DNA from: Bacteriovoracaceae bacterium
Lineage (GTDB): Bacteria > Bdellovibrionota > Bacteriovoracia > Bacteriovoracales > Bacteriovoracaceae
Reading direction: 5' to 3'
NCBI GenBank assembly: GCA_947446575.1
Contig: CANFHC010000007.1
Span: forward strand, 65,763-129,762
DNA length: 64,000 bases
Made by a program: the position numbers and the translations under genes. A model generated the notes under the pieces. It saw only the letters and a program-made list of their open reading frames with translations, was not told the DNA's origin and ran no database searches. Below are positions 11,622-59,068 of this stretch, piece after piece. Positions within the stretch are counted from its first letter, which is position 1, and every line of letters starts with the position of its first letter.

Positions 11622-11977
11622 TCCTTTTTCTTTTCACTATCATCTGGCGGAGCTTGAAGCGCAATATCTTGAGGTCCTTTAGGACCAGCTGAGAATTTTA
11701 TTTTATAAACTTGGCGTTCAATTTCTTCAAGATCTTTTCGACAAGCCTTTACTGTATGAAGCAGAGTTCGCACTTTGGCAGAATCCCACTCCACCTCACC
11801 AGACTCAATGCCCTTTTCCAATAGGCGGCCCAATTCTTCGTAGGTATCTTTCAAATGTGCGTTGGTTCGAGATGCAGTGAGCATCTTTTTTCCAATAACA
11901 CTTGTTTTCATAACTTCTTGGTGAAAGCTAAAAAAGAATCGATTTAATTTCGCTTTCCAATTTGAATTATTTTTCAT
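11618..11977 (-). CDS. Hypothetical protein (basic and coiled-coil-rich)
   Basis: The 119 aa ORF is convergent with engB. I recognise no family. Confidence 0.4.
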   Translation of the reverse strand: MKNNSNWKAKLNRFFFSFHQEVMKTSVIGKKMLTASRTNAHLKDTYEELGRLLEKGIESGEVEWDSAKVRTLLHTVKACRKDLEEIERQVYKIKFSAGPKGPQDIALQAPPDDSEKKKD

Positions 11978-12089
11978 CGATCCTTAGTATACACAAATGC
12001 ATCTAATCTTGTGAAGATTGAATATTTTGGTAACATTGTATGAGTAAAGTCAGTTAATGGAATTTAGCGACCAAGAGAAATAGTACGGT

Positions 12090-42741: not shown

Positions 42742-43896
42742 TCATTGAGAAGGCTCCTTACTTTTCAAGTTTGTTAAAGCAGCGTTGAGCGTTTCATCTT
42801 TTTTAGCAAAACAAAAGCGAACCATTCGTGTCCCCTCATCAGATTTTATATAAAAAGCAGAAGTTGGGATCACCGCTACTTTTTTTTCACGAATAAGTTT
42901 TTGGCAAAATTCTATATCTGATTCACCATCTTTTAAAATGGCCATCGTAAAATATGTTCCCGCTGGTTTAATTACATTAAAGCCTACTTCTTTCAAACCA
43001 TTGACTAGAAGATCTCTTTTAGCACGGTATTGCCTCTTAAAATCTACTAAATATTCATCCATATTGGCTAAAGCTTCCGCCATGGCAACTTGTAGTGGGT
43101 GAGCTACGCAAAAAGTGGTGAACTGATGAACGTTGTGAATCGCTTTTATTATTTCACTCGGTCCACATGCCCATCCTACTTTCCATCCAGTTAATCCAAA
43201 AGTTTTTCCAGTAGAAGAAATCGTTATTGTACGTTTCCGTAAATTTTCAAAACAAGCAGTGGGGTTATGAGCTTGATCAAAAGTTAAAAACTCATAAACC
43301 TCGTCAGAAAGAATGTAGAAATCAAATTTTTCAGCAAGCTCTGAAATTTCTTTTATTTCTGCTGGAGAAAATATTTTCCCTGTTGGATTGTGAGGATTAT
43401 TCACAATGACCATTTTTGTCTTTACCGTTATGGCTGCTTTCAAATCAGACATTTTATAAGTGAACTCTGGAGCAAACAAAGTCACCGGTATGACTTTTGC
43501 TCCTGCCATTTTTAAGGATGCATAATATGAATCGTAAAAAGGTTCAAATACAACAACTTCGTCTCCTGGATTGATTAGGGCCATGGCCGCACAAAAGATA
43601 GCTTCTGTAGCACCATTAGTTACTACAATCTCACTAATAGGATCATAATCGAGGTTGTAAAAACGTTTATAGTTATTAGCAATAGCTGTTCTAAGAGGAA
43701 GAATACCAAGAGAGGGGGCGTATTGATTTTTCCCATCCGCCATTGCTTTTGCAGCCAAATCTCCCACCCACTTAGGGCCGTCGAAATCAGGAAACCCTTG
43801 AGAAAGGTTAATAGCTGAATTTTCAAGGGCCATTTTTGTCATGGTAGTAAAGATCGATTCTTTAAACTCACTGACGGTATGATTTAACGGCTTCAT
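42742..43896 (-). CDS. PLP-dependent aminotransferase, class I (methionine/kynurenine aminotransferase, YbdL-like); candidate final enzyme of methionine salvage
   Basis: ...INLSQGFPDFDGP... and an ...SSTGKTFGLTGWKVGW... PLP-Lys region are present. It lies divergently adjacent to mtnBDC. Confidence 0.75.
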   Translation of the reverse strand: MKPLNHTVSEFKESIFTTMTKMALENSAINLSQGFPDFDGPKWVGDLAAKAMADGKNQYAPSLGILPLRTAIANNYKRFYNLDYDPISEIVVTNGATEAIFCAAMALINPGDEVVVFEPFYDSYYASLKMAGAKVIPVTLFAPEFTYKMSDLKAAITVKTKMVIVNNPHNPTGKIFSPAEIKEISELAEKFDFYILSDEVYEFLTFDQAHNPTACFENLRKRTITISSTGKTFGLTGWKVGWACGPSEIIKAIHNVHQFTTFCVAHPLQVAMAEALANMDEYLVDFKRQYRAKRDLLVNGLKEVGFNVIKPAGTYFTMAILKDGESDIEFCQKLIREKKVAVIPTSAFYIKSDEGTRMVRFCFAKKDETLNAALTNLKSKEPSQ

Positions 43897-44009
43897 AAGG
43901 CAAATCCCTTAGGTTTAGTAGTCATTTTTTAGCATAATCTTAGTATTACTCATGGCCAAAAAAAGCAAGTTTTACTATAAAGAACTAGCCTTTAACCATA
44001 GGATAAAAA

Positions 44010-44657
44010 GTGTCATTCATCAATAGTGCTCAAGATTATGAAGAGATGAAAAAACTAGCGAGTCTAGTTCGCGTGATGAATAGTTTTGGGCATAATCCGG
44101 CCACTAGTGGTAACTATTCACTGCGCTCTAAAACGTCTCCAGAAATAGCTCTCGTCTCAGAATCCGGAATCGATAAAAGTAAATTTACTGAAGATAATTT
44201 CCTTCCGCTTTACTATAAAACAAGACAAATGCTTGATGATTATAAAAACTCAGGTCGTAAATCCTCTGATGAAACCGATATTCATTTAACTATTTATCAA
44301 ATTACAAATGCCAATTGTGTTCTCCACAGTCATATTCTCGATTCACTGTTATTTGCTGATCTTTTTTATGGAAAGCCTTATGCAACCATAGAAGGTTTAG
44401 AACTTTTAAAAGGTTTCAAAGGAATTAAAACTCACGAGTTAAAAATTAACATTCCTTGTTTTGAAAATACTCAAGACATAGCTCTTTTAGCAGAGCAAAT
44501 TAAACCGGCCATTTTAGCTCAAGAAAATAATTATGGACTGCTCTTAAGAGGCCATGGTGTTTATGTCTGGGGCGATAGTGTTGAAGAAGCTAAAAGACAC
44601 TTAGAAGTTTTTGAATACATATTTAAATATTACCTTAACTCTCGCAGAGGCTACTAA
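44010..44657 (+). CDS. mtnB: Methylthioribulose-1-phosphate dehydratase (class II aldolase fold)
   Basis: ...GHNPATSGNYSLRS... and the HSH metal ligands are present. It is the first gene of the mtnB-D-C cluster. Confidence 0.75.
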   Translation: MSFINSAQDYEEMKKLASLVRVMNSFGHNPATSGNYSLRSKTSPEIALVSESGIDKSKFTEDNFLPLYYKTRQMLDDYKNSGRKSSDETDIHLTIYQITNANCVLHSHILDSLLFADLFYGKPYATIEGLELLKGFKGIKTHELKINIPCFENTQDIALLAEQIKPAILAQENNYGLLLRGHGVYVWGDSVEEAKRHLEVFEYIFKYYLNSRRGY

Positions 44658-45178
44658 TGGCGACACTGTTTATTGCTCGTGAAAATGTAACTGTCACGGA
44701 TTTTAAATCCATTCAAAACTTACTAAAAGATCACGGAGTGATGATTGCAAAATGGGAAGCATCAAAGCCGCTAGCTAACGACGCCTCTCAAGACGAAATA
44801 CTTTCAGCCTATGCTCATGAGTTAAAACCATTTATGGAAAAAAATGGTTACGCCACGGCCGATGTTATCAATGTTCATCCCGAGACTCCAAATCTTTTGG
44901 CGATTAGAGAAAAATTTATGAAAGAGCACACTCACAGTGAAGATGAAATACGCTTCTTTGTGGATGGCCAGGGTAAATTTTGGTTTCACTTAGATAATGA
45001 AGAAATTCTTTGTGTCACTTGTGAGCGTGGGGACTTTATGTCGGTGCCTAAAAATGCTCGGCATTGGTTTGACCTTGCTCCTGGCTATTTTGTTAAGGCC
45101 ATTCGCATTTTTTCAAATATGGAAGGATGGGTTCCTAACTATACTGGTTCAGGTGTTGATGCGAGTTATAACCCATGA
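44657..45178 (+). CDS. mtnD: Acireductone dioxygenase (cupin)
   Basis: The ARD pattern HxH...E...H reads ...NVHPETPN...EHTHSEDEIRFFVDGQGKFWFH... Confidence 0.8.
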   Translation: MATLFIARENVTVTDFKSIQNLLKDHGVMIAKWEASKPLANDASQDEILSAYAHELKPFMEKNGYATADVINVHPETPNLLAIREKFMKEHTHSEDEIRFFVDGQGKFWFHLDNEEILCVTCERGDFMSVPKNARHWFDLAPGYFVKAIRIFSNMEGWVPNYTGSGVDASYNP

Positions 45179-45855
45179 AATATATTTTAATGGATGTAGA
45201 AGGAACAACTACTTCAATCAGTTTTGTCCACGAAGTTTTATTTCCCTATTCGATTGAAAAACTTCGCGACTATATCAATTCGCATTTTGACGACACTCCT
45301 GTGCAAGAAGCTTTACTAGAAACTTTCAACACTGCTTTCGAAGAAGAAAAACTTATCCTCAATCACAATGGCCTCATTGAAAAACTTCTTTCATGGGTTA
45401 GTATTGATAGAAAACATAGTGCTCTAAAAAAACTTCAAGGATTAATTTGGAGCGAAGGATATAAAGCAGGTGCTCTGAAAGGTCATGTTTATGAAGATGT
45501 GCCAGTTGCTTTAAAAAAATGGAAAGAAAGCGGACTGACTCTGGGAATTTATTCTTCTGGTTCTATTGAAGCTCAAAGAGTTTTATTTGGTTATTCAATT
45601 AGCGGCGATCTTAATAACTATTTTTCAAATAATTTTGATACAAGCGTTGGCCAAAAGAGAGTTGTGACTTCCTATCAAAATATTTTATCTGAATTAAAAA
45701 TTGAAGCAAACGACGTTCTTTTTCTTTCAGATATAGCTGAAGAACTAGATGCTGCTCAAGAAGTTGGGATGCAAACGTTACAACTAGTTCGATTAGGAGA
45801 TGTCCCATTTGCAGGGCACACGCAGGTAAAAAGTTTTAACGAAATTAATCCTTAA
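45175..45855 (+). CDS. mtnC: Enolase-phosphatase E1 (HAD superfamily)
   Basis: The N-terminal HAD motif ILMDVEGTTTSISFV is present, and the length is 226 aa. Confidence 0.8.
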   Translation: MKYILMDVEGTTTSISFVHEVLFPYSIEKLRDYINSHFDDTPVQEALLETFNTAFEEEKLILNHNGLIEKLLSWVSIDRKHSALKKLQGLIWSEGYKAGALKGHVYEDVPVALKKWKESGLTLGIYSSGSIEAQRVLFGYSISGDLNNYFSNNFDTSVGQKRVVTSYQNILSELKIEANDVLFLSDIAEELDAAQEVGMQTLQLVRLGDVPFAGHTQVKSFNEINP

Positions 45856-48791: not shown

Positions 48792-49693
48792 TGAAATTCA
48801 TTTTCCTTCTTACTTTTATTTTATCCTCTCAAGTTCTTCATGCATCTTCTTGTTGTGGGGGAGGCTCTAGCTCATCACTGATAATAACAGGCGATAATAT
48901 TGAAGAATGGAACTTAGGAATGAGTTACCGCAATGACCTCGGACAAACTGACAATCTGGGCTGGGCCAGTTTTCATAATGACGGAATCACTGATCACCAA
49001 AGTGCTCTTAATTTTCAATACCAACGCCAAATTATTGAGCAGTTTCAGTTAGCAGCAAAGTCTTCACTTATCCAAAAAACGATAGAAAAACAAAATCGTA
49101 AAGAAGTAAAAAATGGTTTAGGAGATCTAGAACTGCAAGCTAGTTTTGAATTTTTGCCTGAGTTCACTTATTCTGCTTATAAGCCACGCGGTTTTGTCTA
49201 TTCCAAATTATCTATTCCTAATTCTCGCAGTCTTTATGATTCTAAGTCTGCCATCTATAGTGATGTAAGAGGCTCTGGCCTCTATTCAATTTCAATAGGA
49301 TCATTTTTTCTCAAAAGATTTGCCAGCACTACTTTAAAAGCAGGTCTTGAAGCTCAACATCTTTTTGGACGTAGTTTTGATCAAAGTCACCTCAATGACT
49401 ATAATAAAATCATTCTTCCACTGGGGATAACTTATTCATTTGACCCAATGCCAATTTCACTGGGATTTAACTCTACTTGGAATTATCAAACAAAAAAACA
49501 ACTGACAGGTGAAATCAACACAACTTCTTCTAAAGAATATTTTTGGGAGTTAGGCACATTTATTAATTGGACTGTTAACAGAGAAGAAACTTGGGGAATA
49601 ACTTATTCAGACTCAACACTTGTGGGGAAAAATATTAACTCACCTCTTTATCGAAGTTTCTCCTTGAATTATACACACGCAACAGAGCTCTAA
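48791..49693 (+). CDS. Secreted hypothetical protein with an N-terminal CCGGGSSSS motif (possible outer-membrane protein)
   Basis: It has a signal peptide and a β-rich composition. It is translationally coupled to the upstream gene by an ATGA overlap. Confidence 0.4.
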   Translation: MKFIFLLTFILSSQVLHASSCCGGGSSSSLIITGDNIEEWNLGMSYRNDLGQTDNLGWASFHNDGITDHQSALNFQYQRQIIEQFQLAAKSSLIQKTIEKQNRKEVKNGLGDLELQASFEFLPEFTYSAYKPRGFVYSKLSIPNSRSLYDSKSAIYSDVRGSGLYSISIGSFFLKRFASTTLKAGLEAQHLFGRSFDQSHLNDYNKIILPLGITYSFDPMPISLGFNSTWNYQTKKQLTGEINTTSSKEYFWELGTFINWTVNREETWGITYSDSTLVGKNINSPLYRSFSLNYTHATEL

Positions 49694-50262
49694 TTTTTTT
49701 CCTGATAACTGTCCCAAAGCAATACTTTTTCTAAAATCGCGATCAAAGCATGATTTATAGGTATTTCTTTTTCTAAAAAATGAGGATCAAGTGTTTCAAG
49801 GTTTTTATTCCAAATTTCGATAAAGGGAATTTCACTTTCCGCGAAATTAAGATCCTCAGTAATTTGATTTGTATCTTTAAAAACTTTACAAATATTATAT
49901 TCGATTTGATTATTTTTCCCATGGCGAGCACTTATTCCAAATGCTCTACAAAGAAATGGACGATGCTCATACTCTCGACAACTGCCTAATCCTTTTTCTT
50001 CATCTGTAACTTTCAAGAAAAGACATCTTCCGTCTTTTTTTATTTTTGCCTCTTCTAAATAAACTTCAGCTTTTTTTGTAGCAAGTAAATGCAGGGCCAT
50101 GGGAATTAGTTCATAAGGCGTGCAAGATATTTCAGGATTAAAACAACACTTCCCACAGCCTGTTGGGCAGTGAAGATTGTTTTTCTTTTGAAAGTCTCCA
50201 AAGACTTTGGAGACTTCTTCATACTTGTTCAAAATAGAAAGCGAGAGCTTTTCATCAATCAT
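49690..50262 (-). CDS. YkgJ-family (UPF0153) Cys-cluster zinc/iron-chelating protein
   Basis: The CxxCxxCC motif reads CPTGCGKCCFNPE, and further Cys are conserved. It is the last gene of the phosphonate operon and overlaps the upstream gene by 4 bp. Confidence 0.6.
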   Translation of the reverse strand: MIDEKLSLSILNKYEEVSKVFGDFQKKNNLHCPTGCGKCCFNPEISCTPYELIPMALHLLATKKAEVYLEEAKIKKDGRCLFLKVTDEEKGLGSCREYEHRPFLCRAFGISARHGKNNQIEYNICKVFKDTNQITEDLNFAESEIPFIEIWNKNLETLDPHFLEKEIPINHALIAILEKVLLWDSYQEKN

Positions 50263-50265
50263 AAC

Positions 50266-51378
50266 TTAAATGATTTTTTTAACTCTTAAATACTCTTCAA
50301 ACACTTTTAGAAAATCTTCAATGTCTTGAGGATATATGGCGCCAATATTTGAAAGTCTAAAAGTATTAACATCACCCACTTTACCTGGGTAAATAGTGAA
50401 ACCACGCTCGAATAAAAAATCGTGCATTTCGTTAAAAGAATAATTAGGACTTTTTGGATCCATAATAGCTGTTAAAAGTTTGGCATGGTCTTTTTCTTCT
50501 ACTAAAAAAGTAAATCCAAGCTCTAGGACTCTTTTCTTCATAATTTCATACATTGAAGAGTAACGTGCAAATCGCTGCTCCGGACCTTCTTCAAAATACT
50601 CTGTAATGGCCTGTCTTAAAGCATAGAGAGTTTGAACTGGAGGAGTAAAAAGAAACTGCTTGTTTTTTTCTAAGTACAAATGATTTTCAAGTAGATTGAA
50701 ATAAAAATTACGAGCTTTAATTTCTTTAGTTTTAAGAAGTGACTTTAGATTTGCAATGACAAAACTGATTCCTGCCATTCCTTGAATACATTTATTTGAA
50801 GAAGAAACGAGGTAATGAATATTGTCTTTTTCAACATCAATCATCATTCCTGCAAATGACGACATTGCGTCCACAATTGTTTCAACTCTATACTTTTGAG
50901 CTAAAGTAGAAATAGCACTCATTGGATTTAAAATACCAACTGTCGTTTCATGATGAATAAAAGCAACATGAGATATTTCTCCCTGATGAGCTTTAAAAAA
51001 CTTTTCAACTTCCTTGAGATCTAGGGCCAATCCCCATTTTTGATTATAATCAATATGACCTACATTATAAGCATCACAAATTTTTTGCATCCGCTCCCCA
51101 TAAGCTCCATTATTTAAAATAAGAACTTTTTTATTATGAGGAACAACTGATGTTAGGCATGCCTCTACTCCGCCAGTACCAGAGGATGTGAGCATTACAC
51201 ATGTATGGTTTTTTTCACCATAAGCAGCTTTGATTAAATCATTGCGAACTGAAAGAGTTAATTCTCCAAACTCCAATTCACGAGGACATATATCTGGAAC
51301 GACCATCGCATTTTTAACTGTATCAGTTGTTGTCGCTGGACCTGGATTAAGGAGAATATTTCGTTTTGTCTGAATCAT
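50266..51378 (-). CDS. 2-aminoethylphosphonate:pyruvate aminotransferase (PhnW/AepZ-like, class V aminotransferase)
   Basis: The N-terminus ...ILLNPGPATTTDTVKNAMV... is typical of PhnW-type enzymes. It lies in an operon with ppm and ppd. Confidence 0.75.
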   Translation of the reverse strand: MIQTKRNILLNPGPATTTDTVKNAMVVPDICPRELEFGELTLSVRNDLIKAAYGEKNHTCVMLTSSGTGGVEACLTSVVPHNKKVLILNNGAYGERMQKICDAYNVGHIDYNQKWGLALDLKEVEKFFKAHQGEISHVAFIHHETTVGILNPMSAISTLAQKYRVETIVDAMSSFAGMMIDVEKDNIHYLVSSSNKCIQGMAGISFVIANLKSLLKTKEIKARNFYFNLLENHLYLEKNKQFLFTPPVQTLYALRQAITEYFEEGPEQRFARYSSMYEIMKKRVLELGFTFLVEEKDHAKLLTAIMDPKSPNYSFNEMHDFLFERGFTIYPGKVGDVNTFRLSNIGAIYPQDIEDFLKVFEEYLRVKKII

Positions 51379-51401
51379 TTTAAAACCTCTAAATTAATAA
51401 A

Positions 51402-53375
51402 TTACCAAATATGCACTCTTTTATCAGCGGGTAAAACCATAGGATCAGTGTCAAGGCATCCAAATGCTTCTTTGAACCCTGAAAAGTGTTTTACCACTTC
51501 ATTGACTCTTGCTACGCCTAACGAATGTGGATCAGATTTTAAACGTAACTCACGCACACCTGGAAGCTGAACTTCACACCATGAGCGGGCATAACTTAAG
51601 AAGAAACTCTTTTGTTCTTTCTTTAATTCTGCTGGATTGAATTTGTTATTAGCAAAAGCGGCATCATATGCTGCTGTTAATCCAACCAAGTCTCCAATAT
51701 TTTCGCCTAAAGTAAATTCGCCATTCATTCCCGCTTTAGAATATTGATCGATTAAAGATTTTGTGAGTTCCTTAAATTTCTTTAAATCAGAGGCACTCAT
51801 CCAATCGTAGAGCTTTCCGTCAGCATCGTATTTTGAGCCTTGATCATCAATCCCATGCCCTAATTCATGGCCCACCACCATTCCGACTCCAGCCAGATTT
51901 TCAGTTAAGCTGCTCTCTTGTGAGTAGAAAGGATATTGTAAAATCCCTTGAAGCATTGTGAATTGGTTATAAGAAGGTTGATAAAATGCATTAACCACAA
52001 GTGGTTCAACGCCCTCCCACGAACGAATATCTTTTAATTCACTAAAATATTTAAATTCGCGCACATCAACAATATCATTTCTTCTTTCAGTATTCGCAAT
52101 ATAAGCATTTTCCGAATAATCCGCTGTCGGATAAAATTTCCAGTCTTCTAATTTAGCAGGGGCCACTAAACGCATAAAGGCTGATGAAATTTTTCGTTGA
52201 GCTTCTTTTTTTGCCTTTGGTGTAAGCCATGTGTTTTTAGCCAGTGAAGCTAAAATACTTCCTTTTATTTTCTCCACCATTTCAGCTACTTTTACAGAAG
52301 AGAAATTAGGAAACATCTTAGGCAATACAAGATAATCAAATTCAACACCAAAGTGATTCATAGTGATATCAGTACATTCTTCTTCTAATTCTGAACGTTT
52401 ATTTTTGCCACCTAAGAATTTATTTTTAAAAGCAAAAGCTTTATCGTAGAAAGTTGGATATCCCTTATCTAGTTTAGAATATAATTCATAAAAAATTTGA
52501 ATGGTTTTTAACTCTTCTAAAGAATAATTTTTTACCACATTAGCTAAAAATGGCATTGTCTTTGAATTAAGAACTCTTATCTTTGTTTCTTTGGGAACTG
52601 CTTTTAAAAATTCGTTGAGCTCTAGCTCTGGAAAATTCTTTAGCAACTCTTTTTTAGTTGTAAAATTTCTTCGAGAATAGGCAATACGAGATTCTGCGGG
52701 AAATAATCGATTTTCTTGATTCTCCACTTCATATTTTACAATCGTCTTAGCGCGCTCCTCAGGATTACTCACTTCAATAGTTTTAAAAAAATCTATCAAT
52801 AAGACTTCTAAGGCCTTTATTAACTCTGGATTTTTTGCATAACTTTTTTCTGGAAGTAACGAATACCCCACGCCCATCATTAAATCTGATTTTTTTGGGT
52901 CATCAAAATTATCGACTGAATAATAACCAATAAAACCAGCATTCCCGCTGTGAATTCGTTTAGTTTGAGAGGCAATCCAATCTTTTTTTGTTTCTACTTT
53001 TTCAAGATCTAATAATTTTTTAGCCACATATGTAACTTCTTCTTTTGCTCGTGCCTCTTTATTTACACAAGAAAGATAATAATTTCGAATTTCGCCGCCA
53101 ATTGCATTTTCAGCAGGAGCTTTCGTAAGCTCCTTAATATAATTTTTTTTGAATTCTAAAATGCGTTCTGCTGAGTCGCTAAAAGCAAAAGTATGCTTTC
53201 TTCTATCTGCTCGAAGCTGAAAGCTTTCAATAACTTTAGAACAAGCATGTTCATAAAGATTTTCGCATGGATTAATCTTTTCATTAATGGGGAATTCTCT
53301 TCTAAGTGGAATATCACTGCTGGCAGCAAGAACAACTCCTGAGAATAATAATGAAAGCAAAAAATATTTTAACAT
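51402..53375 (-). CDS. M13-family (neprilysin/PepO-like) zinc metallopeptidase, secreted
   Basis: It has a signal peptide. The HExxH motif is VGHELGHGIDD, and the downstream ...GENIGDL... contains the third-ligand Glu. The length is 657 aa. Confidence 0.85.
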   Translation of the reverse strand: MLKYFLLSLLFSGVVLAASSDIPLRREFPINEKINPCENLYEHACSKVIESFQLRADRRKHTFAFSDSAERILEFKKNYIKELTKAPAENAIGGEIRNYYLSCVNKEARAKEEVTYVAKKLLDLEKVETKKDWIASQTKRIHSGNAGFIGYYSVDNFDDPKKSDLMMGVGYSLLPEKSYAKNPELIKALEVLLIDFFKTIEVSNPEERAKTIVKYEVENQENRLFPAESRIAYSRRNFTTKKELLKNFPELELNEFLKAVPKETKIRVLNSKTMPFLANVVKNYSLEELKTIQIFYELYSKLDKGYPTFYDKAFAFKNKFLGGKNKRSELEEECTDITMNHFGVEFDYLVLPKMFPNFSSVKVAEMVEKIKGSILASLAKNTWLTPKAKKEAQRKISSAFMRLVAPAKLEDWKFYPTADYSENAYIANTERRNDIVDVREFKYFSELKDIRSWEGVEPLVVNAFYQPSYNQFTMLQGILQYPFYSQESSLTENLAGVGMVVGHELGHGIDDQGSKYDADGKLYDWMSASDLKKFKELTKSLIDQYSKAGMNGEFTLGENIGDLVGLTAAYDAAFANNKFNPAELKKEQKSFFLSYARSWCEVQLPGVRELRLKSDPHSLGVARVNEVVKHFSGFKEAFGCLDTDPMVLPADKRVHIW

Positions 53376-53429
53376 CGTGTCGTCTCCAATAGAAAAGGGC
53401 CATCCGGCCCTTAGTCATAATTTATTTTT

Positions 53430-54587
53430 TTACTTTGACTGAACAAAATCAGCAAAACGCACACTCACTTCCGCGGGAGTGACTTTTGGTCTACCTAATT
53501 TTTCCGGTGAGCCTTTTTGAGTTTTTAAGTGAATAAAAGTAGCTCCATTATTGGCCTTAACTTCATTCAATATATTTTCAAATTTAGAAAGTAAGTCTGT
53601 AGAATAAACTTGTTCATATCCAAAGCCTTTAGCAATTGCACCGAAAGAAATTCCTCCCGTAACAGTACCTTGTCCGCCAGTTGAATCGTGAGCTTCGTTG
53701 TCGATTAATAAATGGACTAGATTTTTGGGTTTAAAAGCTCCAACTGTGGCCATAGATCCAGTTCTCATTAAAAGGGCCCCATCTCCATCTACAACAATTA
53801 CTTTTAAATTTGGTTTGCAAAGAGCGATACCAAATCCAAAAGCCAGAGCACATCCCATCGATCCCACCATATAGAATTGGTTTTTAAGATCTCCTACTTC
53901 ATAAAGTTCACGTCCAGTTTTACCTGTTGTTGCAACGACTGCTACTTCTTGTCCCAATACTTTTTGCATAACTTCTAAAACAGGAGTTCTAGTTGTGCGC
54001 TCTTTGTATTCCAATTCAAAATGGTCTGTGTGACTGATAGAAAAATCTTTTTTAGAAGGAGCTGGTTTTTTCTGAAGTTTATAATCAGCTATGTCATCTT
54101 TTCTCATGACAAAAACAAATGGTTGATGATTTTTTTTCATATATTCATCAGCTAATTTTAGAGCTGGTATAACTTCCGCGTCAGTCTGTGGAAAATAAGC
54201 CCACTTCAGTCTCATTGTCTCCAGCATTTCAGTAGTAATTTGTCCCATCAATTCATGTTGAGGCTCATCATGAGCTCCACCAGGTTCACCACGAAGAGTT
54301 GTGATAATCATCACTGGTAAATTAAAAGTGTAAGTTAAAGAGGTAATGGGGTTAACAGCATTTCCCAGTCCTGAGTTTTGAAACATAACAACCGCACGCT
54401 TGCCGGCCACTGTTGCTCCAGCAGCGATTGCAATAGCATCACCTTCGTTAACGCTATCGATGAAATCAAATCCATCGGTATCTATAACGTAATTAATGAA
54501 TGGTTTTAAATATGAACAGGGAGTTCCTGTAAAAAAATTAAACCCCAATTCGCGAGCTGGTGTTAAAAACTTATCTGCTGTTATCAT
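53430..54587 (-). CDS. ppd: Phosphonopyruvate decarboxylase (TPP-dependent)
   Basis: The N-terminus ...FFTGTPCSYLKPF... matches Ppd. The TPP-binding GDG...N motif (…VVDGDGALLM…) is present, and the gene lies adjacent to the PEP mutase. Confidence 0.85.
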   Translation of the reverse strand: MITADKFLTPARELGFNFFTGTPCSYLKPFINYVIDTDGFDFIDSVNEGDAIAIAAGATVAGKRAVVMFQNSGLGNAVNPITSLTYTFNLPVMIITTLRGEPGGAHDEPQHELMGQITTEMLETMRLKWAYFPQTDAEVIPALKLADEYMKKNHQPFVFVMRKDDIADYKLQKKPAPSKKDFSISHTDHFELEYKERTTRTPVLEVMQKVLGQEVAVVATTGKTGRELYEVGDLKNQFYMVGSMGCALAFGFGIALCKPNLKVIVVDGDGALLMRTGSMATVGAFKPKNLVHLLIDNEAHDSTGGQGTVTGGISFGAIAKGFGYEQVYSTDLLSKFENILNEVKANNGATFIHLKTQKGSPEKLGRPKVTPAEVSVRFADFVQSK

Positions 54588-54602
54588 ACGATCCTCTTAA
54601 TA

Positions 54603-56243
54603 TTAAAATTTTTGTCCACGTGAAACGTCAGCGTAGTTATCTACATCTAACCAGTGTCCATCTATATACATGACATTGATTTTTACTTTTTTCTCTAGAA
54701 GCTTGTTCATCAAGTCTGGCAATTTCATTTTGCTGAAACCTGAATCATTTGATAATTCTGTTAAAGTTTTCGATAGGACGTCTGAACCAACTTTATTAGT
54801 TTTAATCAATCCAATCCACTCACCTTGAGCTTCTTTATTATCAGATGCTTTTCCAAATTTAATTCCTTTTAGCTCAGCATTTTCAGCACTAAAAAGAGTG
54901 TGGTTATGGGCACGAGAGCAATTTACGAAGTCACCTTCGTATCCAGGTGCTCTGTCTTTTAAAGCTGCATCAACTACAATGGTGATATCGCCTTTTTCTT
55001 CTAACAAGCGAGATAAGATATATTTTCTATAAAGAATATCACCGTATGAAATTACAGTATGATCAACAATTTCTTTTTTAGCTAAAAACAGTGATGATAG
55101 CTCACTTGTCGTTTCAAAGTTATCATTATCAAAATATTTAATATTTTGAAGCTTGAAAGCTTCTTTTTTGTATCCGCGAACAATTGAGATATCTTTGATG
55201 TCATGTTCATAGAAATGATTGATTGATTGCTCAATTAACGGTTTCCCATTGATATCAATTAAAACTTTTGGTTTATCTTCAGTTAGTTCTTTTAACTCAG
55301 CTCCGCGAGATGCCGCTAAGAAGATTGCTCTTGGTTTGTCAGCATCAGCAACTGATAAATATAATTTTTCAGCTGCTTCAAGTTCTTTGTCATTTTGAAG
55401 ACGGAAAAGCTCAGCCACTGAAACGATTTTATCTTCAACATTCATTAATGATTGTTCTTCAAAAATAGTCTTTGTTACATTTTGCATCGCTGTTACGGCC
55501 ATTCTCATTTGGTGGTTGGCCCAAATACAAACAGAAATATTCGCTTCTCTAAATGCGTTTGTCGGAGTTGCATAATATTTAGTTGGAACGATTACGATTG
55601 GACAAGACTTGCTTCTTTCTCCCCATTCTTTCATGAAAGCGAGAATTTCATCTGGCTTAGAAATTTTTGAGTGCATAAGAATTCCGTTAGCACCAGCTAA
55701 GCGATAAGCTTCAGCTCTCTTCAACGCTTCTCCCATTCCCCAACCAGCGATTAAAGCTTCAACTCTCGCGATGATATTAAAATCATCATCAAGTTTTGTG
55801 TCTTGACCAGCTTTGATTTTCCCACAAAATTCTTCTATGTCGGCAAGAGGCTGTGCCTCTGTTCTTAAGAATGAGTTTGTTTTAGGGAAAATTTTATCTT
55901 CAATACAAACTCCAGCAACTCCACGTTGTTCTAGTTTTGTAACAAGTCTTCTCATGTTGTTGAAGTTTCCGTATCCAGTGTCTCCGTCGAGAAGAATTGG
56001 AATCTTTGTTGCATCACTCATGAATTCTACTACTTCTAAAACCTGAGTCCATGAAGCTTCGTTATTATCACGAACACCAAGTGCCGCTGAAATAGAAAGT
56101 CCTGATCCCCAAATCCCTTTAAAGCCAGCTTCTTCTGCGATTTTCGCAGACATCCCATTATGTGCTTCCATTAAAAATTCTAATTCATTACTCATCAACA
56201 TATTTCTTAGTTGTGTAGTTTTTTTAACTGTAGGTGTTTTCAT
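54603..56243 (-). CDS. pepM: Phosphoenolpyruvate mutase fused to a C-terminal nucleotidyltransferase domain (a fusion type described for phosphonate-cytidylyltransferase)
   Basis: The N-terminal 290 aa carry the PEP mutase hallmark ...[13 protein letters not shown]... (the EDKxxxxxNS motif). The C-terminal 240 aa form an NTP-transferase fold (...[19 protein letters not shown]...). Confidence 0.85.
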
Positions 56244-56875
56244 ACAAAGGTTTCCTTATAAACATTAAATGCCATGTAGAGACTAAAAAGCACAATAAGA
56301 GCTCCGCAAGCACGAGAGAAATTAATAAAAAATCGTTCCGGTATTTTATTTTGATAACGAGAAACTATTCTTAAAAGTAAGTAGAACCATGAAGCCGATC
56401 CCATTCCTAAACCTAATGAAAGGCAAAAATAATTAAAGACCGTAGAATGAAAAAGTCCCCATGATTTAATAACGGCCGCAATTCCCGACATCGTTGCAAT
56501 CAAAGTTGGATTAGAAGAGTAAATGAGAACTCCCAAAAAAAAGAAGCTCGCCGTCTTTGGCTCTTTTTGCCCTTCATTGTGTTTCATATCGAAATTCTTT
56601 TTCCCCAATAATTCTTTAAGACCAAAACCTAAAAGAAAAAGGACTCCAACTATTTTTAAAATTAAAACCGTCTTGGCATTAAAATGAAAAAGAGAGAGAC
56701 CTGTCAGAATCACCATGAAGTAAACAAAGTCCATCAGCGATCCGCCAAGTGCGATAGAAAAGGCTGAACGGAAGTTATGTTTGATTAAAGTATTTACGAC
56801 CCATACGTTGATTGGACCAACGGGGATACAAATAAGAAAACCAACAATAAAACCTACGAGTAAAGCAATGATCAT
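56240..56875 (-). CDS. LysE/RhtB-type small membrane translocator
   Basis: It has six predicted transmembrane helices and an N-terminal ...[11 protein letters not shown]... motif. It overlaps both neighbours by 4 bp. Confidence 0.5.
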
Positions 56876-57627
56876 CTAGGCATACCTTCGAACAATCCTT
56901 TCGCTTTCTCTAAATCTTCTTTATTATCAATTTCAACCCAACGGTTATTAATCGTCCGATGAATATTCATATCGTGATTTAGAAGGAACTCGTTCATAAC
57001 GTGTTCCCAGTTTTTAGAAATATTTTTTTCTTCAGCTAAAAAAGATTTACAAGCAGCCAGCATGTCATCTCTATAATTTTTTGAAAATTTAAGAATCCCT
57101 ACCGCTTCACCAGCAAAAGTAAAACGCGTACGCTCTTCTTCGGTAACAGCTCGCTTATCGATCGTCATGCGGACAAATCCATCTTTGTCCAGCATAGCTT
57201 TGGCACATTCAATATCGTCGATTGAACTCTCGCCCACTAAAATTTGATTTGGTGATTTATCTTCTAAGAATCTTTTCAGTATCGCGGTATCGTAAATGAG
57301 ATCGGCATCAAACAGTAAAAAATCACCATGCGTTTTTTCTAGTCCGTAGTAAAAAGAATAAGTATTCCCTTTTACACGAAAATCTTCGTTGACTGCAAAA
57401 TGAATATCGAAGTCTGACTTAAATTTTTCTAAGTATGATTCAAGCACATCGCGTTTGTAACCAGTCACGACAACGACATTTCTAATCCCGACTGATTTCC
57501 AAGCTTCAAAATGCCAATCCATAAGAGGTTTGCCATTTACCATTAGTAAACTTTTCGGATTTTCTGTAATGTCCGCTATGCGAGAGCCATATCCAGCAGC
57601 GAGAATAAGTGCAGTATATTGTGCCAT
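56872..57627 (-). CDS. Stand-alone nucleotidyltransferase (LicC/MobA-like NTP-transferase family)
   Basis: ...ALILAAGYGSRIADITENPKSLLMVNGKPLMDW... is the G-x-G-x-R NTP-transferase signature. Confidence 0.75.
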   Translation of the reverse strand: MAQYTALILAAGYGSRIADITENPKSLLMVNGKPLMDWHFEAWKSVGIRNVVVVTGYKRDVLESYLEKFKSDFDIHFAVNEDFRVKGNTYSFYYGLEKTHGDFLLFDADLIYDTAILKRFLEDKSPNQILVGESSIDDIECAKAMLDKDGFVRMTIDKRAVTEEERTRFTFAGEAVGILKFSKNYRDDMLAACKSFLAEEKNISKNWEHVMNEFLLNHDMNIHRTINNRWVEIDNKEDLEKAKGLFEGMPR

Positions 57628-57634
57628 AAAATTA

Positions 57635-58564
57635 CTATCTCTTTTTTGCCCAAAGGCGATCCATTGTTCTTTTCATTGGATGGTGATGATCTTTTTTATA
57701 TTCATGAATTGTTACAGCATTATAATAATCAGAAAAACAAGTGCGCCCATGAAGAACTTGAGCATCGTGAGTTAATAAAATTTCACCTGCTGAAAAACTA
57801 TGGCGGTATTGATTATCTGAATGCTCTAAAATGGCATCGAGTGTATCAAGTGCATACATTTGTTCGTCTGTTAAAGGACGATCAAGTTTTAAATGTGCTG
57901 ATTCCATATAGGGACGAAGATGACGAAATTCTGGTTCACCTTTTTTATTATAAATAATTATCGGTGCTTCATAAGTCGCGTCAGCGACTCCACGTTGTTC
58001 CCAGAAAAAATTCTTTTCTAGTATTGCGAGAACATCAGGGTGTTTTTCTTTTAAAATTTTATGAACAATTAAAGCGTTCACTAAAATATTTTCACCACCG
58101 GCCATAGCGGGAGCGATACAAGCCAGAACAAGATATTCCCATTTATAGGGAACGTTAACGTTATCAGTGTGAATTGTTCCACCCTCTCTTGTCTGGTGAT
58201 AACGAGCACCTTTTAACATTGAATTATTTCTATCGCGATCATAAACGAGAATTGCTCTCTCGCCTGCTTCGTTTTGAATTAAAGTTTCACCTAAAACATT
58301 TCCAAGTAGCCAACTAATCGTTCTTTGTTCTTGAATTGTGTATTTATTGTGAAGATCGATAAATGGTTTTACGATGACTAATCTTTTTCCATTTTCTAAT
58401 TCATTTCTAACTTCCTCTACTTCACGTTTAAAAGTAGGACAGTCATCGTCTTCTAAAATTTTTGCATCTTCAACTTTGTTGTAAACATGCAAAGCTTTTA
58501 TATAGTCGTAAATTTCATTCTGAGCTTCACCCGAAAACGAGTAATAAAAATTATCATTTAGCAT
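57635..58564 (-). CDS. TauD/TfdA-family Fe(II)/2-oxoglutarate-dependent dioxygenase
   Basis: The HxD facial-triad motif (GGTIHTDNVNVP) is followed by ...GGENILVNA... (TauD-like spacing) and a distal ...LHGRT... His/Arg. It is the first gene of the operon. Confidence 0.7.
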   Translation of the reverse strand: MLNDNFYYSFSGEAQNEIYDYIKALHVYNKVEDAKILEDDDCPTFKREVEEVRNELENGKRLVIVKPFIDLHNKYTIQEQRTISWLLGNVLGETLIQNEAGERAILVYDRDRNNSMLKGARYHQTREGGTIHTDNVNVPYKWEYLVLACIAPAMAGGENILVNALIVHKILKEKHPDVLAILEKNFFWEQRGVADATYEAPIIIYNKKGEPEFRHLRPYMESAHLKLDRPLTDEQMYALDTLDAILEHSDNQYRHSFSAGEILLTHDAQVLHGRTCFSDYYNAVTIHEYKKDHHHPMKRTMDRLWAKKR

Positions 58565-58627
58565 GGCATCATCCTGTCTATGTTAGGGGAACAAAATAGC
58601 ACTCCCCTAGGGAGAATTCAACAGTAA

Positions 58628-59068
58628 TTAGAGCTCAATTTTGATAGTGGAATGGTCGTGATTGAAGAGGAATTTTGCTTTTTCAAAACTCGGTGGAAGC
58701 ATGCAATTCTTACAGTTGGAAAAACCGTATTTCTCCTTCGGTATATTGAGAGCATTCTTATCTAAATCCTGGTTCATATTGGCATCGTGATAAAGTTTTA
58801 TTGCATATTCCCCGCAAGGAACATTTTTAAACACGTACTCCACTTTTTTATCATTAATGGGAGATCGCCCTTTCATAAACGACGGCGGGCCATTTTCTTG
58901 AGGCTTAAACGTTAGGGCCTTATCATCTAAGTCGAATTTTATTTGACCATCACTGTTATCAAGCCCCGTGACAATCATTAACAAATCGCCCGAACACGTT
59001 GAAATGGGTAAATCAGCGCTCTGAGCATCGCCCCAAAATAATGCAACTAGAACAAATTTTAAAATCAT
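58628..59068 (-). CDS. DUF2141-family secreted protein
   Basis: It has a signal peptide and ...CGEYAIKLYHDANMNQDLDKNALNIPKEKYGFSN..., the DUF2141 pattern. Confidence 0.55.
   Translation of the reverse strand: MILKFVLVALFWGDAQSADLPISTCSGDLLMIVTGLDNSDGQIKFDLDDKALTFKPQENGPPSFMKGRSPINDKKVEYVFKNVPCGEYAIKLYHDANMNQDLDKNALNIPKEKYGFSNCKNCMLPPSFEKAKFLFNHDHSTIKIEL

What the first reader, a model, noticed from the sequence alone, without database searches (positions are those of the whole stretch)
57635..58564. TauD/TfdA-type Fe/2OG dioxygenase leading the phosphonate operon, a candidate AEP C1-hydroxylase
The protein has the TauD-like facial-triad layout HTD…(about 25 aa)…GGENIL…(about 110 aa)…LHGRT. 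It is the first gene of the phosphonate operon and overlaps nothing unrelated. Hydroxylation of AEP to 1-hydroxy-2-aminoethylphosphonate is known in catabolism, where PhnY-type Fe/2OG enzymes do it. The 1-hydroxy-AEP head group is known chemically from Bacteriovorax sphingophosphonolipids, but to my knowledge no biosynthetic hydroxylase has been assigned. A TauD-family enzyme co-transcribed with PepM, Ppd and the transaminase is an obvious candidate, acting on free AEP, on CMP-AEP or on the lipid-bound head group.
Basis: inference. Interest (0 to 1): 0.7.

Follow-up and report, generated by a model that had tools for sequence, protein, structure and literature searches.

The report
Predicted phosphonate hydroxylase leading AEP operon
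This is a real, well-conserved iron/2-oxoglutarate oxygenase gene at the head of an operon that makes 2-aminoethylphosphonate (AEP); it most likely adds a hydroxyl group to AEP, a role already predicted in print for similar gene clusters but never tested for this enzyme group.

Summary
Window 57635-58564 (-) encodes a 309-aa TauD/TfdA-family Fe(II)/2-oxoglutarate oxygenase with the stated motifs. It is under strong purifying selection and gives a confident fold model.

Its closest solved relatives are FrbJ (a phosphonate hydroxylase), TtnM, gamma-butyrobetaine hydroxylase and TmpA. It is not taurine dioxygenase.

In 34 of 41 assessable related genomes, a PntC-like cytidylyltransferase gene lies 6-52 bp downstream. 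In 30 of these it is followed by a CDP-alcohol phosphatidyltransferase, and usually by LysE, PepM-cytidylyltransferase, Ppd and AEP transaminase. A natural cytidylyltransferase-oxygenase fusion also exists.

The candidate-hydroxylase reading is therefore well supported by context, but it remains untested.

Published genome surveys already predict 1-hydroxy-AEP lipids from an analogous seven-gene cluster in Burkholderiales, where I find the oxygenase belongs to an unrelated family.

Two caveats apply. This species has cleanly lost the CDP-alcohol phosphatidyltransferase gene. I also found no close ortholog attributable to Bacteriovorax stolpii, the one bacterium with chemically proven hydroxy-AEP lipids.

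Verdict: a new member of a known kind, of moderate interest.

The parts
57635..58564 (-). TauD/TfdA-family Fe(II)/2-oxoglutarate oxygenase, 309 aa; predicted AEP or CMP-AEP C1-hydroxylase
   Evidence: ORF. Pfam PF02668 E 6.4e-21. Best solved relatives by sequence are FrbJ, TtnM (7n7v), BBOX, TmpA and DfmD. AF2 pLDDT 94. Foldseek hits to the same enzymes. dN/dS 0.03-0.10.
58163..58171 (-). H132-T-D134, the first two iron ligands of the facial triad
   Evidence: Translation check. Invariant in 70 homologs. Aligns with BBOX SFHTD.
58082..58099 (-). G156-G-E-N-I-L161 loop; G156, G157 and E158 are invariant; probable 2-oxoglutarate-contacting loop
   Evidence: Aligns colinearly with GGDTLW of E. 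coli TauD, whose sequence I recalled from memory. The role is an inference.
57740..57754 (-). L-H272-G-R274-T, the distal iron ligand
   Evidence: H272 is at least 90% conserved; one homolog, P0050, has Tyr.
57656..57670 (-). R299-T-M-D-R303 on the last beta strand; both Arg invariant; candidate binders of the 2OG C5 carboxylate and of the substrate anion
   Evidence: Invariance. Strand 300-307 in the model. Same Arg-x3-Arg spacing as TauD R266/R270 (established knowledge). The role is an inference.
56872..57627 (-). Stand-alone PntC/LicC-type cytidylyltransferase, 251 aa; the conserved immediate partner of the oxygenase
   Evidence: Pfam NTP_transf_3. Best PDB hit is the Treponema denticola AEP cytidylyltransferase 6pd1, E 1.4e-14. 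It lies 6-52 bp downstream of the oxygenase in 34 of 41 assessable loci.
56240..56875 (-). LysE-type membrane protein, 211 aa
   Evidence: Pfam PF01810 E 1.7e-19. Found at this position in 27 of the 43 related loci.
54603..56243 (-). PEP mutase fused to a LicC/PntC-type cytidylyltransferase, 546 aa
   Evidence: NCBIfam TIGR02320 at 396 bits against a cut-off of 320; Pfam NTP_transf_3 at residues 306-423.
53430..54587 (-). Phosphonopyruvate decarboxylase
   Evidence: NCBIfam TIGR03297 at 405.7 bits against a cut-off of 312.5.
51402..53375 (-). M13 metallopeptidase sitting between Ppd and the transaminase; probably not part of the phosphonate chemistry
   Evidence: Pfam Peptidase_M13 and M13_N. 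Absent from this position in some relatives, for example L003. A terminator-like hairpin lies just upstream at 53412-53395.
50266..51378 (-). 2-aminoethylphosphonate aminotransferase
   Evidence: NCBIfam TIGR03301 at 410 bits against a cut-off of 361.
49690..50262 (-). CxxCxxCC (YkgJ-type) metal-binding protein that ends the gene string
   Evidence: Pfam PF03692. Conserved after the transaminase in close relatives.

Best explanation
The gene encodes a soluble Fe(II)/2-oxoglutarate oxygenase that tailors the phosphonate made by its own operon.

**Proposed pathway**
1. PepM, Ppd and the transaminase make 2-aminoethylphosphonate (AEP).
2. The oxygenase binds iron through H132, D134 and H272, and binds 2-oxoglutarate probably through the GGEN loop and R299.
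3. It decarboxylates 2-oxoglutarate to form a ferryl species.
4. The ferryl species abstracts a hydrogen from C1 of the AEP skeleton and returns a hydroxyl, giving 1-hydroxy-2-aminoethylphosphonate.

**Order of steps**
- I favour hydroxylation of free AEP, followed by cytidylylation of the product by the dedicated adjacent PntC-like enzyme.
- Hydroxylation of CMP-AEP is the close alternative.
- In relatives the CMP-activated head group is then handed to a CDP-alcohol phosphatidyltransferase. This species has lost that gene, so the acceptor step must be encoded elsewhere or must differ.

**Shown versus inferred**
- Shown: the fold, the iron ligands, conservation and gene linkage.
- Inferred: the substrate, the regiochemistry, the order of steps and the stereochemistry.
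For: **An active oxygenase**
- Membership of the TauD family and an intact, conserved facial triad are established.
- The fold model is confident and matches FrbJ ('phosphonate hydroxylase'), TmpA, BBOX and TtnM.
- By sequence, four of the five named solved relatives act on phosphonates or on the phosphonate-like gamma-butyrobetaine: FrbJ (E 1e-12, or 4e-19 with a profile), BBOX, TmpA and DfmD. The best NCBIfam hit is the TmpA model, although far below its cut-off.

**Gene linkage**
- In 34 of 41 assessable loci a PntC-like cytidylyltransferase starts 6-52 bp after the oxygenase.
- In 30 of these a CDP-alcohol phosphatidyltransferase follows. Most then carry LysE, PepM-cytidylyltransferase, Ppd and the AEP transaminase.
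- The pair persists in Pelagibacteraceae, Methylococcaceae and a Sulfitobacter MAG. In the Pelagibacteraceae locus L031 PepM is fused to a different cytidylyltransferase type.
- A natural fusion of cytidylyltransferase and this oxygenase exists: P0291, 558 aa.

**Independent recruitment**
- The analogous Burkholderiales seven-gene core is predicted in the literature to give 1-hydroxy-AEP lipid (PMC8942020).
- It has the same parts but an unrelated 235-aa oxygenase of the Pfam HalD family (BLASTP E 0.43 against this protein).
- An oxygenase has therefore been recruited twice to this cluster type.

**Chemistry (established knowledge)**
- TmpA, BBOX and FrbJ all hydroxylate the carbon beta to the nitrogen, which in AEP is C1.
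- Hydroxylation at C2 would give a carbinolamine that collapses back to phosphonoacetaldehyde. That would be futile in an AEP-making operon.
Against: - No member of this clade has been assayed.
- The nearest solved homologs are only about 17-18% identical over the structural alignment, so substrate cannot be transferred by homology.
- The protein fails the TmpA, BBOX and TMLH equivalog cut-offs by a wide margin.
- Bacteriovorax stolpii is the only bacterium with chemically proven hydroxy-AEP lipids. It did not appear among the 43 loci of the species-representative genome scan. No hit from a megabase-scale contig appeared in either top-120 protein list.
- The window operon lacks the CDP-alcohol phosphatidyltransferase, so a lipid product is not assured in this organism.
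- Seven family members at 41-58% identity sit outside recognisable phosphonate clusters, for example next to a methyltransferase (L036) or beside very large ORFs of unknown type (L037). They keep all the conserved arginines, so the family may accept other substrates.
Confidence: 0.55

Rival explanations
1. Same reaction, different substrate: the enzyme hydroxylates CMP-AEP, the nucleotide-activated phosphonate, rather than free AEP. The PepM-fused cytidylyltransferase would make CMP-AEP first and the oxygenase would tailor it.
For: - The oxygenase is tightly linked to cytidylyltransferases and is sometimes fused to one.
- Tailoring of CMP-phosphonates has precedent: Fom3 acts on cytidylyl-HEP, and the FR-900098 pathway, which contains FrbJ, runs on CMP conjugates (established knowledge; Fom1 is cited in PMC6697681).
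- Nine invariant arginines would suit a polyanionic ligand.
Against: - It leaves the second, dedicated cytidylyltransferase next to the oxygenase without a job. Both oxygenase-containing cluster types carry two such enzymes.
- Members without an adjacent cytidylyltransferase keep the same arginines.
- Fused enzymes need not act consecutively; Fom1 does not.
Confidence: 0.27
2. The enzyme performs a different oxidation on a pathway phosphonate. Examples are oxidation of phosphonoacetaldehyde to phosphonoacetate as FzmG does, hydroxylation of 2-hydroxyethylphosphonate or of an N-methylated AEP, or a desaturation.
For: - Fe/2OG enzymes of phosphonate pathways are chemically versatile; FzmG is described in PMC8942020.
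- Some family members are fused to, or adjacent to, methyltransferases: P0259, L036 and L031.
- The weak best NCBIfam hits are trimethylammonium-binding enzymes.
Against: - The operon encodes a bona fide AEP transaminase and no methyltransferase, aldehyde dehydrogenase or alcohol dehydrogenase.
- AEP or CMP-AEP is therefore the only abundant phosphonate expected.
- The two cytidylyltransferases are PntC/LicC-like.
Confidence: 0.1
3. The enzyme acts on the assembled conjugate, meaning a lipid- or glycan-bound AEP head group, or on a non-phosphonate part of it such as an acyl chain.
For:
- The operon contains a membrane protein (LysE), and relatives contain a membrane phosphotransferase.
- One fusion homolog lies near a ceramidase gene.
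Against: - The protein has no predicted membrane segment; the model is a compact soluble domain.
- The tightest linkage is to the soluble cytidylyltransferase, not to the membrane transferase.
- The gene is fully conserved in this species although the CDP-alcohol phosphatidyltransferase has been lost.
Confidence: 0.05
4. The enzyme is an ordinary catabolic taurine/sulfonate dioxygenase (TauD proper) that happens to lie next to the phosphonate genes.
For: The automatic JGI name for many homologs is 'alpha-ketoglutarate-dependent taurine dioxygenase', and the Pfam family is named TauD.
Against: - No NCBIfam TauD, TfdA or AtsK model is hit at E<=0.01.
- A profile of the clade scores about 1 bit against E. 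coli TauD, whose sequence I recalled from memory.
- No TauD structure appears among the sequence hits in the PDB.
- Linkage to phosphonate genes is conserved across phyla.
- No sulfonate transporter genes are present in the operon.
Confidence: 0.03

Closest known systems
FrbJ (PDB 5EQN), the Fe/2OG phosphonate hydroxylase of FR-900098/FR-33289 biosynthesis in Streptomyces rubellomurinus
   Same: It is the best solved sequence relative (E 1e-12, or 4e-19 with a profile) and shares the fold (Foldseek E 2e-15). It is a biosynthetic enzyme. It acts on an aminoalkylphosphonate in a pathway that uses CMP-activated intermediates. It hydroxylates the carbon beta to the nitrogen (established knowledge).
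   Different: Identity is only about 18% over the structural alignment. The substrate is an N-acetyl-N-hydroxy-aminopropylphosphonate. The cluster is an actinomycete antibiotic cluster, not a cell-envelope cluster.
TmpA (PDB 6NPB) and PhnY*, the catabolic C1-hydroxylases of trimethyl-AEP and AEP
   Same: They carry out the same proposed reaction type, Fe/2OG hydroxylation at C1 of an AEP skeleton (PMC10574752; PMC8177086). TmpA is a detectable homolog (profile E 3e-6; NCBIfam best hit; Foldseek E 5e-14).
   Different: They are catabolic and paired with an HD-domain C-P-cleaving oxygenase (PhnZ or TmpB); no such gene is in this operon. The protein scores 43.5 bits against a TmpA cut-off of 400. 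It lacks the extra N-terminal domain of TmpA and BBOX (309 aa against about 380). From memory, PhnY* belongs to the PhyH-type family rather than the TauD family; I could not check this here.
The 2OG-Fe(II) oxygenase of the Burkholderiales 'CDP-OH' (Group 1 phosphonolipid) seven-gene core
   Same: It sits in the same kind of cluster: PepM-PntC fusion, Ppd, AEP transaminase, a second PntC, a CDP-alcohol phosphatidyltransferase and one further membrane protein. It has the same predicted product, a 1-hydroxy-AEP lipid (PMC8942020).
   Different: It is not homologous to this protein. It is 235 aa, belongs to the Pfam HalD family (PF23169), and gives BLASTP E 0.43. Its accompanying membrane protein is LPG_synthase_TM rather than LysE. 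It is also untested biochemically.
Human gamma-butyrobetaine hydroxylase (BBOX1, PDB 3O2G and 4BG1)
   Same: The catalytic domain aligns with the iron ligands in register and Foldseek gives E 2e-15. It hydroxylates the carbon beta to an ammonium group.
   Different: Its substrate is a carboxylate, not a phosphonate. It has an N-terminal zinc domain that is absent here. Its equivalog score is not met: 36.9 bits against a cut-off of 415.
The AEP hydroxylation step of hydroxyphosphonocystoximate biosynthesis in Streptomyces regensis
   Same: It is a biosynthetic, not catabolic, route through 1-hydroxy-AEP; the S enantiomer is the intermediate (PMC12366243). From memory, the enzyme is the Fe/2OG dioxygenase HpxV (Goettge et al. 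2018).
   Different: The product is a small-molecule natural product rather than an envelope head group. I could not obtain the sequence to compare, and the paper is not in the held library.
E. coli taurine dioxygenase TauD
   Same: It shares the Pfam family and fold, the HxD...H triad, the GG-acidic loop after the triad, and the Arg-x3-Arg motif on the last strand.
   Different: There is no significant direct sequence similarity (using a recalled sequence). There is no sulfonate context, and no NCBIfam TauD hit.

Membership tests
TauD/TfdA family (Pfam PF02668), clavaminate-synthase-like Fe/2OG oxygenases | Profile score above the curated cut-off | tested here: met
   75.9 bits against a cut-off of 27, E 6.4e-21, covering residues 42-278.
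TauD/TfdA family (Pfam PF02668), clavaminate-synthase-like Fe/2OG oxygenases | HxD/E...H iron-binding facial triad | tested here: met
   H132, D134 and H272 align with BBOX H202, D204 and H347. H132 and D134 are invariant and H272 is at least 90% conserved in 70 homologs.
TauD/TfdA family (Pfam PF02668), clavaminate-synthase-like Fe/2OG oxygenases | Double-stranded beta-helix fold of the TauD/CAS type | tested here: met
   AF2 model with pLDDT 94. Foldseek probability 1.00 to TtnM, BBOX, FrbJ, GlaH, TmpA, AsnO, VioC and CAS.
TauD/TfdA family (Pfam PF02668), clavaminate-synthase-like Fe/2OG oxygenases | Arginine that binds the C5 carboxylate of 2-oxoglutarate on the strand after the distal His | tested here: inconclusive
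   Invariant R299 and R303 lie on strand 300-307, with the TauD R266/R270 spacing.
Taurine dioxygenase TauD proper | Equivalog-level similarity to TauD | tested here: not met
   No NCBIfam TauD model at E<=0.01. No TauD chain among PDB sequence hits. The clade profile scores about 1 bit against a recalled E. coli TauD sequence.
TmpA (2-trimethylaminoethylphosphonate dioxygenase, NF049936) | Equivalog score | tested here: not met
   43.5 bits against a cut-off of 400; only residues 126-278 align.
PhnY*/PhnZ or TmpA/TmpB oxidative C-P cleavage pathway | Adjacent HD-domain diiron oxygenase that cleaves the hydroxylated phosphonate | tested here: not met
   None of the genes from 49690 to 59068 has an HD domain. 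The neighbours are biosynthetic: PepM, Ppd and the AEP transaminase.
PhnY* (AEP dioxygenase) | Sequence orthology to PhnY* | not testable with these tools
   No PhnY* sequence or model surfaced in the NCBIfam, Pfam or PDB searches. Its family assignment (PhyH type) is from memory only.
Phosphonyl-tailoring (Pnt) phosphonolipid cluster of the seven-gene-core type (Li & Horsman 2022; Yu et al. 2013 Group 1) | PepM fused to PntC, plus Ppd and the AEP transaminase | tested here: met
   All three pass NCBIfam equivalog cut-offs; the fusion is shown by Pfam.
Phosphonyl-tailoring (Pnt) phosphonolipid cluster of the seven-gene-core type (Li & Horsman 2022; Yu et al. 2013 Group 1) | A second, stand-alone PntC cytidylyltransferase | tested here: met
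   Gene at 56872-57627; the best PDB hit is Tde-PntC 6pd1 at E 1.4e-14.
Phosphonyl-tailoring (Pnt) phosphonolipid cluster of the seven-gene-core type (Li & Horsman 2022; Yu et al. 2013 Group 1) | An alpha-ketoglutarate-dependent iron oxygenase in the core | tested here: met
   Present, but from a different family than in Burkholderiales: TauD type against HalD type, BLASTP E 0.43.
Phosphonyl-tailoring (Pnt) phosphonolipid cluster of the seven-gene-core type (Li & Horsman 2022; Yu et al. 2013 Group 1) | CDP-alcohol phosphatidyltransferase in the core | tested here: not met
   Absent from the whole 64-kb window (tblastn best E 4.6). Also absent from independent assemblies of the same species. 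Present in 30 related loci.

The most novel reading that the evidence does not exclude
This TauD-type clade is the long-missing biosynthetic source of 1-hydroxy-AEP head groups in envelope phosphonolipids and phosphonoglycans. It is found in Bacteriovoracaceae, other Bdellovibrionales, SAR11, a methanotroph MAG and a Sulfitobacter MAG, and it works as a two-enzyme module with a dedicated hydroxy-AEP cytidylyltransferase. On this reading the same role has been filled independently by an unrelated oxygenase in Burkholderiales. The species in this window, having lost the CDP-alcohol phosphatidyltransferase, would send CMP-hydroxy-AEP to a different, unknown acceptor.
Probability: 0.4. Interest if true: 0.6.

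Novelty: new member of a known kind. Interest (0 to 1): 0.45.

Why it matters
Hydroxy-AEP is a natural phosphonate with its own bacterial degradation enzymes: PbfA, PbfF and PhnZ. Where it comes from in the environment is poorly known; papers up to 2025 say its production is only 'postulated on genomic grounds'.

A defined, widespread hydroxylase-cytidylyltransferase gene pair would give a testable source and a marker gene for surveys, including in SAR11. It would also give a second, independent example for comparing how Fe/2OG enzymes recognise phosphonates.

The reaction type and the cluster logic are already anticipated in the literature, so the gain is confirmation and extension rather than a new principle.

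Tried and rejected
- **Fetching the Bacteriovorax stolpii cluster.** The single genome scan did not return it. It was also absent from the top 120 PepM-fusion hits. No supplementary tables of Li & Horsman are held. The question stays open.
- **Primary papers.** Yu et al. 2013 and Goettge et al. 2018 are not in the library. Their content is cited second-hand or from memory.
- **Cupriavidus plasmid hit (H6, 26% identity).** I checked it as a possible Burkholderiales cluster member. It has no phosphonate genes nearby.
- **Cytidylyltransferase pocket residues.** I compared both cytidylyltransferases with Tde-PntC to tell an AEP pocket from a hydroxy-AEP pocket. The E196 equivalent is kept in the stand-alone enzyme (E208). 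The E104 equivalent is Asp in the stand-alone enzyme and Tyr in the fused domain. No conclusion could be drawn.
- **Conserved residues with and without an adjacent cytidylyltransferase.** All catalytic and arginine positions are shared, so this gives no handle on free AEP versus CMP-AEP.
- **Sphingolipid genes in the window.** The class-I/II aminotransferase at 42742-43896 is a methionine aminotransferase within a methionine-salvage group, not serine palmitoyltransferase.
- **AlphaFold-database fold search.** The library was not available.
- **Promoter scan.** It gave fewer hits than shuffled sequence and is uninformative.
Full report
**1.

- The minus-strand ORF at 57635-58564 is 309 aa. It starts at the first ATG after a stop, with an AGGA 7 nt upstream.
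The spacings are 21 and 109 residues.
- Pfam places the protein in TauD/TfdA at E 6.4e-21.
- 338 homologs have E<=1e-5. An exhaustive profile search finds 2835 cluster representatives at E<=1e-3 and 120 at E<=1e-30.
- Against seven related genes dN/dS is 0.03-0.10, with synonymous sites near saturation; the eighth comparison could not be computed.
- An AlphaFold model built on 70 homologs has mean pLDDT 94 and pTM 0.91.
- This is a real gene under strong constraint.

**2. What kind of enzyme it is**

- H132, D134 and H272 align in register with the iron ligands of human gamma-butyrobetaine hydroxylase.
- H132 and D134 are invariant and H272 is at least 90% conserved among 70 homologs. One homolog has Tyr at position 272.
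- Foldseek against the PDB ranks, in order: TtnM (7N7V), BBOX, FrbJ (5EQN, deposited as 'phosphonate hydroxylase'), glutarate hydroxylase and TmpA. All have probability 1.00, TM-scores of 0.6-0.7 and 14-18% identity.
- By sequence the solved relatives are FrbJ (E 1e-12, or 4e-19 with a family profile), TtnM, BBOX, TmpA and DfmD. FrbJ, TmpA and DfmD are phosphonate enzymes. BBOX works on the carboxylate analogue of TmpA's substrate.
- The best NCBIfam hit is the TmpA model, but at 43.5 bits against a cut-off of 400. BBOX and TMLH are likewise far below cut-off. The protein is not an ortholog of any named enzyme.
- It is not taurine dioxygenase. No TauD model or structure is hit. A profile of the clade scores about 1 bit against E. 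coli TauD, whose sequence I recalled from memory.
- The GGEN loop lines up with TauD's GGDT loop. The invariant R299-x3-R303 on the last strand has the spacing of TauD R266/R270, which bind 2-oxoglutarate and the substrate anion. I treat those roles as inference only.

**3. The neighbourhood**

- On the same strand, downstream of the oxygenase, the genes run in this order:
  1. a 251-aa cytidylyltransferase;
  2. a LysE-type membrane protein;
  3. PEP mutase fused to a second cytidylyltransferase;
  4. phosphonopyruvate decarboxylase;
  5. an M13 peptidase;
  6. the AEP aminotransferase;
  7. a CxxCxxCC protein.
- PepM, Ppd and the transaminase all pass NCBIfam equivalog cut-offs.
- The stand-alone cytidylyltransferase is most similar to the Treponema denticola AEP cytidylyltransferase PntC (6PD1, E 1.4e-14). 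The fused domain is most similar to LicC.
- Upstream, a DUF2141 gene ends 63 bp before the oxygenase, with a weak terminator-like hairpin between them.
- In six relatives an opposite-strand gene intervenes. The oxygenase is therefore the leader of the phosphonate unit.

**4. Comparative evidence**

- A scan of one genome per species returned 43 loci. They come from Bacteriovoracaceae, other Bdellovibrionales, Pelagibacteraceae, a Methylococcaceae MAG, a Sulfitobacter MAG, Planctomycetota and Myxococcota.
- Of the 41 loci with enough downstream sequence:
  - 34 have the cytidylyltransferase starting 6-52 bp after the oxygenase;
  - 30 of those continue with a 290-aa CDP-alcohol phosphatidyltransferase (Pfam PF01066);
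  - most then carry LysE, PepM-cytidylyltransferase, Ppd and the transaminase.
- The oxygenase-cytidylyltransferase pair persists in SAR11. In the SAR11 locus L031, PepM is fused to a different cytidylyltransferase family, and the cluster also carries a B12-radical-SAM enzyme and a TylF-type methyltransferase.
- A 558-aa protein fuses a PntC-type cytidylyltransferase to this oxygenase.
- Other fusions join the oxygenase to a methyltransferase, or to NeuB plus a CMP-sugar-type cytidylyltransferase.
- Seven family members at 41-58% identity have no recognisable phosphonate neighbours.
- Those seven keep all conserved catalytic and arginine residues. Residue comparison therefore does not separate substrates.

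**5. What is already known**

- Li & Horsman 2022 describe a 'Burkholderiales_CDP-OH' seven-gene core, following Yu et al. 2013. It comprises Ppm fused to PntC, Ppd, the AEP transaminase, a putative alpha-ketoglutarate iron oxygenase, a second PntC and two phospholipid genes.
- They state that it is predicted to make a 1-hydroxy-substituted phosphonate, and that no such lipid has been characterised from those bacteria.
- They place the B. stolpii cluster in a more distant family (PMC8942020).
- Two papers from the Peracchi group say that hydroxy-AEP production outside B. stolpii is postulated on genomic grounds. They also say that (S)-hydroxy-AEP is a biosynthetic intermediate in Streptomyces regensis (PMC8154272; PMC12366243).
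- I retrieved an example of the Burkholderiales core from Mycetohabitans rhizoxinica pBRH01.
  - Its oxygenase is a 235-aa protein of the Pfam HalD family with no similarity to the window protein (E 0.43).
  - Its extra membrane protein is LPG_synthase_TM rather than LysE.
- The same cluster design therefore exists twice with non-homologous oxygenases. I read this as support for the oxygenase being an integral tailoring step. As far as the searched literature shows, this point has not been made for the TauD-type clade.
- Seven literature searches aimed at this question found no biochemical work on the clade.

**6. Most likely mechanism**

- *Shown:* an intact Fe/2OG catalytic core in a soluble single-domain protein, co-inherited with AEP synthesis and cytidylyl activation.
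- *Inferred:* the substrate is AEP or CMP-AEP and the site is C1.
- The regiochemical argument rests on established chemistry.
  - TmpA, BBOX and FrbJ all hydroxylate the carbon beta to the nitrogen, which in AEP is C1.
  - Hydroxylation at C2 would give a carbinolamine that reverts to phosphonoacetaldehyde, undoing the transaminase step.
- I slightly favour free AEP as the substrate, with the adjacent cytidylyltransferase dedicated to the hydroxylated product. That explains why oxygenase-containing clusters of both types carry two cytidylyltransferases.
- CMP-AEP remains a serious alternative, given the precedents of Fom3 and the FR-900098 pathway.

**7. Caveats specific to this window**

- *Loss of the CDP-alcohol phosphatidyltransferase.*
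  - The gene is missing. The cytidylyltransferase stop codon now overlaps the LysE start codon (56872-56877). About 11 nt differ from the relatives' junctions.
  - No homolog exists anywhere in the 64 kb.
  - The same arrangement is seen in three independent assemblies, so this is a real, clean gene loss and not an assembly error.
  - The rest of the operon is intact and constrained. The pathway probably still runs, but the acceptor step is unknown here.
- *Bacteriovorax stolpii.*
  - It did not appear among the 43 loci. The two search motifs are invariant or near-invariant across the family down to 45% identity.
  - No hit from a megabase-scale contig, as a complete B. stolpii genome would give, appeared in either top-120 protein list.
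  - I could not confirm that its genome is in the collection, so this is a negative of moderate weight.
- If it is true, the proven hydroxy-AEP lipid of B. stolpii is made by a different enzyme.

**8. Verdict**

- I classify the protein as a new, uncharacterised member of a known kind: Fe/2OG phosphonate hydroxylases in phosphonyl-tailoring clusters.
- Confidence that it is an active Fe/2OG oxygenase acting on a phosphonate intermediate of this operon is about 0.85.
- Confidence that it makes 1-hydroxy-AEP starting from free AEP, as in the best explanation, is about 0.55. The CMP-AEP variant, which gives the same head group, is scored separately at about 0.27.
- Interest is 0.45.

Noticed in passing
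window 56860-56900 (junction of the cytidylyltransferase and LysE genes): The 290-aa CDP-alcohol phosphatidyltransferase gene that sits between these two genes in 30 related loci is cleanly deleted here. The two reading frames now overlap (stop and start codons at 56872-56877). No copy exists elsewhere in the window. Three independent assemblies show the same arrangement.
   Followed up: yes
L049 (Mycetohabitans rhizoxinica pBRH01) 5594-12897: The Burkholderiales seven-gene phosphonolipid core has the same design as the Bacteriovoracaceae cluster. However, it uses an unrelated 235-aa HalD-family 2OG oxygenase, and an LPG_synthase_TM protein in place of LysE. This is non-orthologous replacement of two parts.
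   Followed up: partly
P0291 / L048 8001-9677: A natural fusion of a PntC-type cytidylyltransferase (N-terminal) with this oxygenase (C-terminal), 558 aa. On its metagenome contig it lies downstream of a neutral/alkaline ceramidase gene and a PMT_2 glycosyltransferase gene.
   Followed up: partly
P0259, P0348, P0373 (proteins): Three further fusions of the oxygenase domain: with a SAM methyltransferase; with NeuB plus a CMP-sugar-type cytidylyltransferase; and with a biotin-carboxylase/ATP-grasp module.
   Followed up: no
window 51402-53375 and 53395-53412: An M13 metallopeptidase gene sits between Ppd and the AEP transaminase, preceded by the strongest terminator-like hairpin of the region. 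It is present in some relatives and absent in others (for example L003), so it looks like an inserted passenger.
   Followed up: partly
L031 7724-13783 and 17057-20233 (Pelagibacteraceae single-cell genome): A SAR11 cluster carries two PepM genes fused to CTP_transf_like cytidylyltransferases. It also carries a CDP-alcohol phosphatidyltransferase, the oxygenase-cytidylyltransferase pair, a TylF-type methyltransferase, a B12-binding radical-SAM enzyme and Ppd; one further ORF beside the second PepM gene was not identified. This suggests more elaborate tailoring of the phosphonate there.
   Followed up: partly
L018 3610-4518 (Bacteriovorax sp. LF-bin-6): The same MAG that carries an in-cluster copy (L016) has a second, 58%-identical copy outside any phosphonate cluster. 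This copy has changes next to the distal His (G273D, T275S).
   Followed up: no
L035 404-2701 and L033 234-1253 (Planctomycetota): Here the oxygenase homolog follows an AEP-transaminase-like gene with no PepM or Ppd in the available sequence. A VTC-domain gene lies nearby. It is unclear whether this is a truncated view of a biosynthetic cluster or a different use of the enzyme.
   Followed up: no
window 42742-45855: A methionine-salvage group (methionine aminotransferase, class II aldolase/MtnB-like, ARD dioxygenase and a HAD hydrolase) lies a few kb beyond the phosphonate operon. It appears unrelated to it.
   Followed up: partly
window 58565-58627 compared with L001 8649-9848: Several close relatives have a 399-aa opposite-strand outer-membrane-type gene between DUF2141 and the oxygenase. 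The window has only a 63-bp spacer there.
   Followed up: partly
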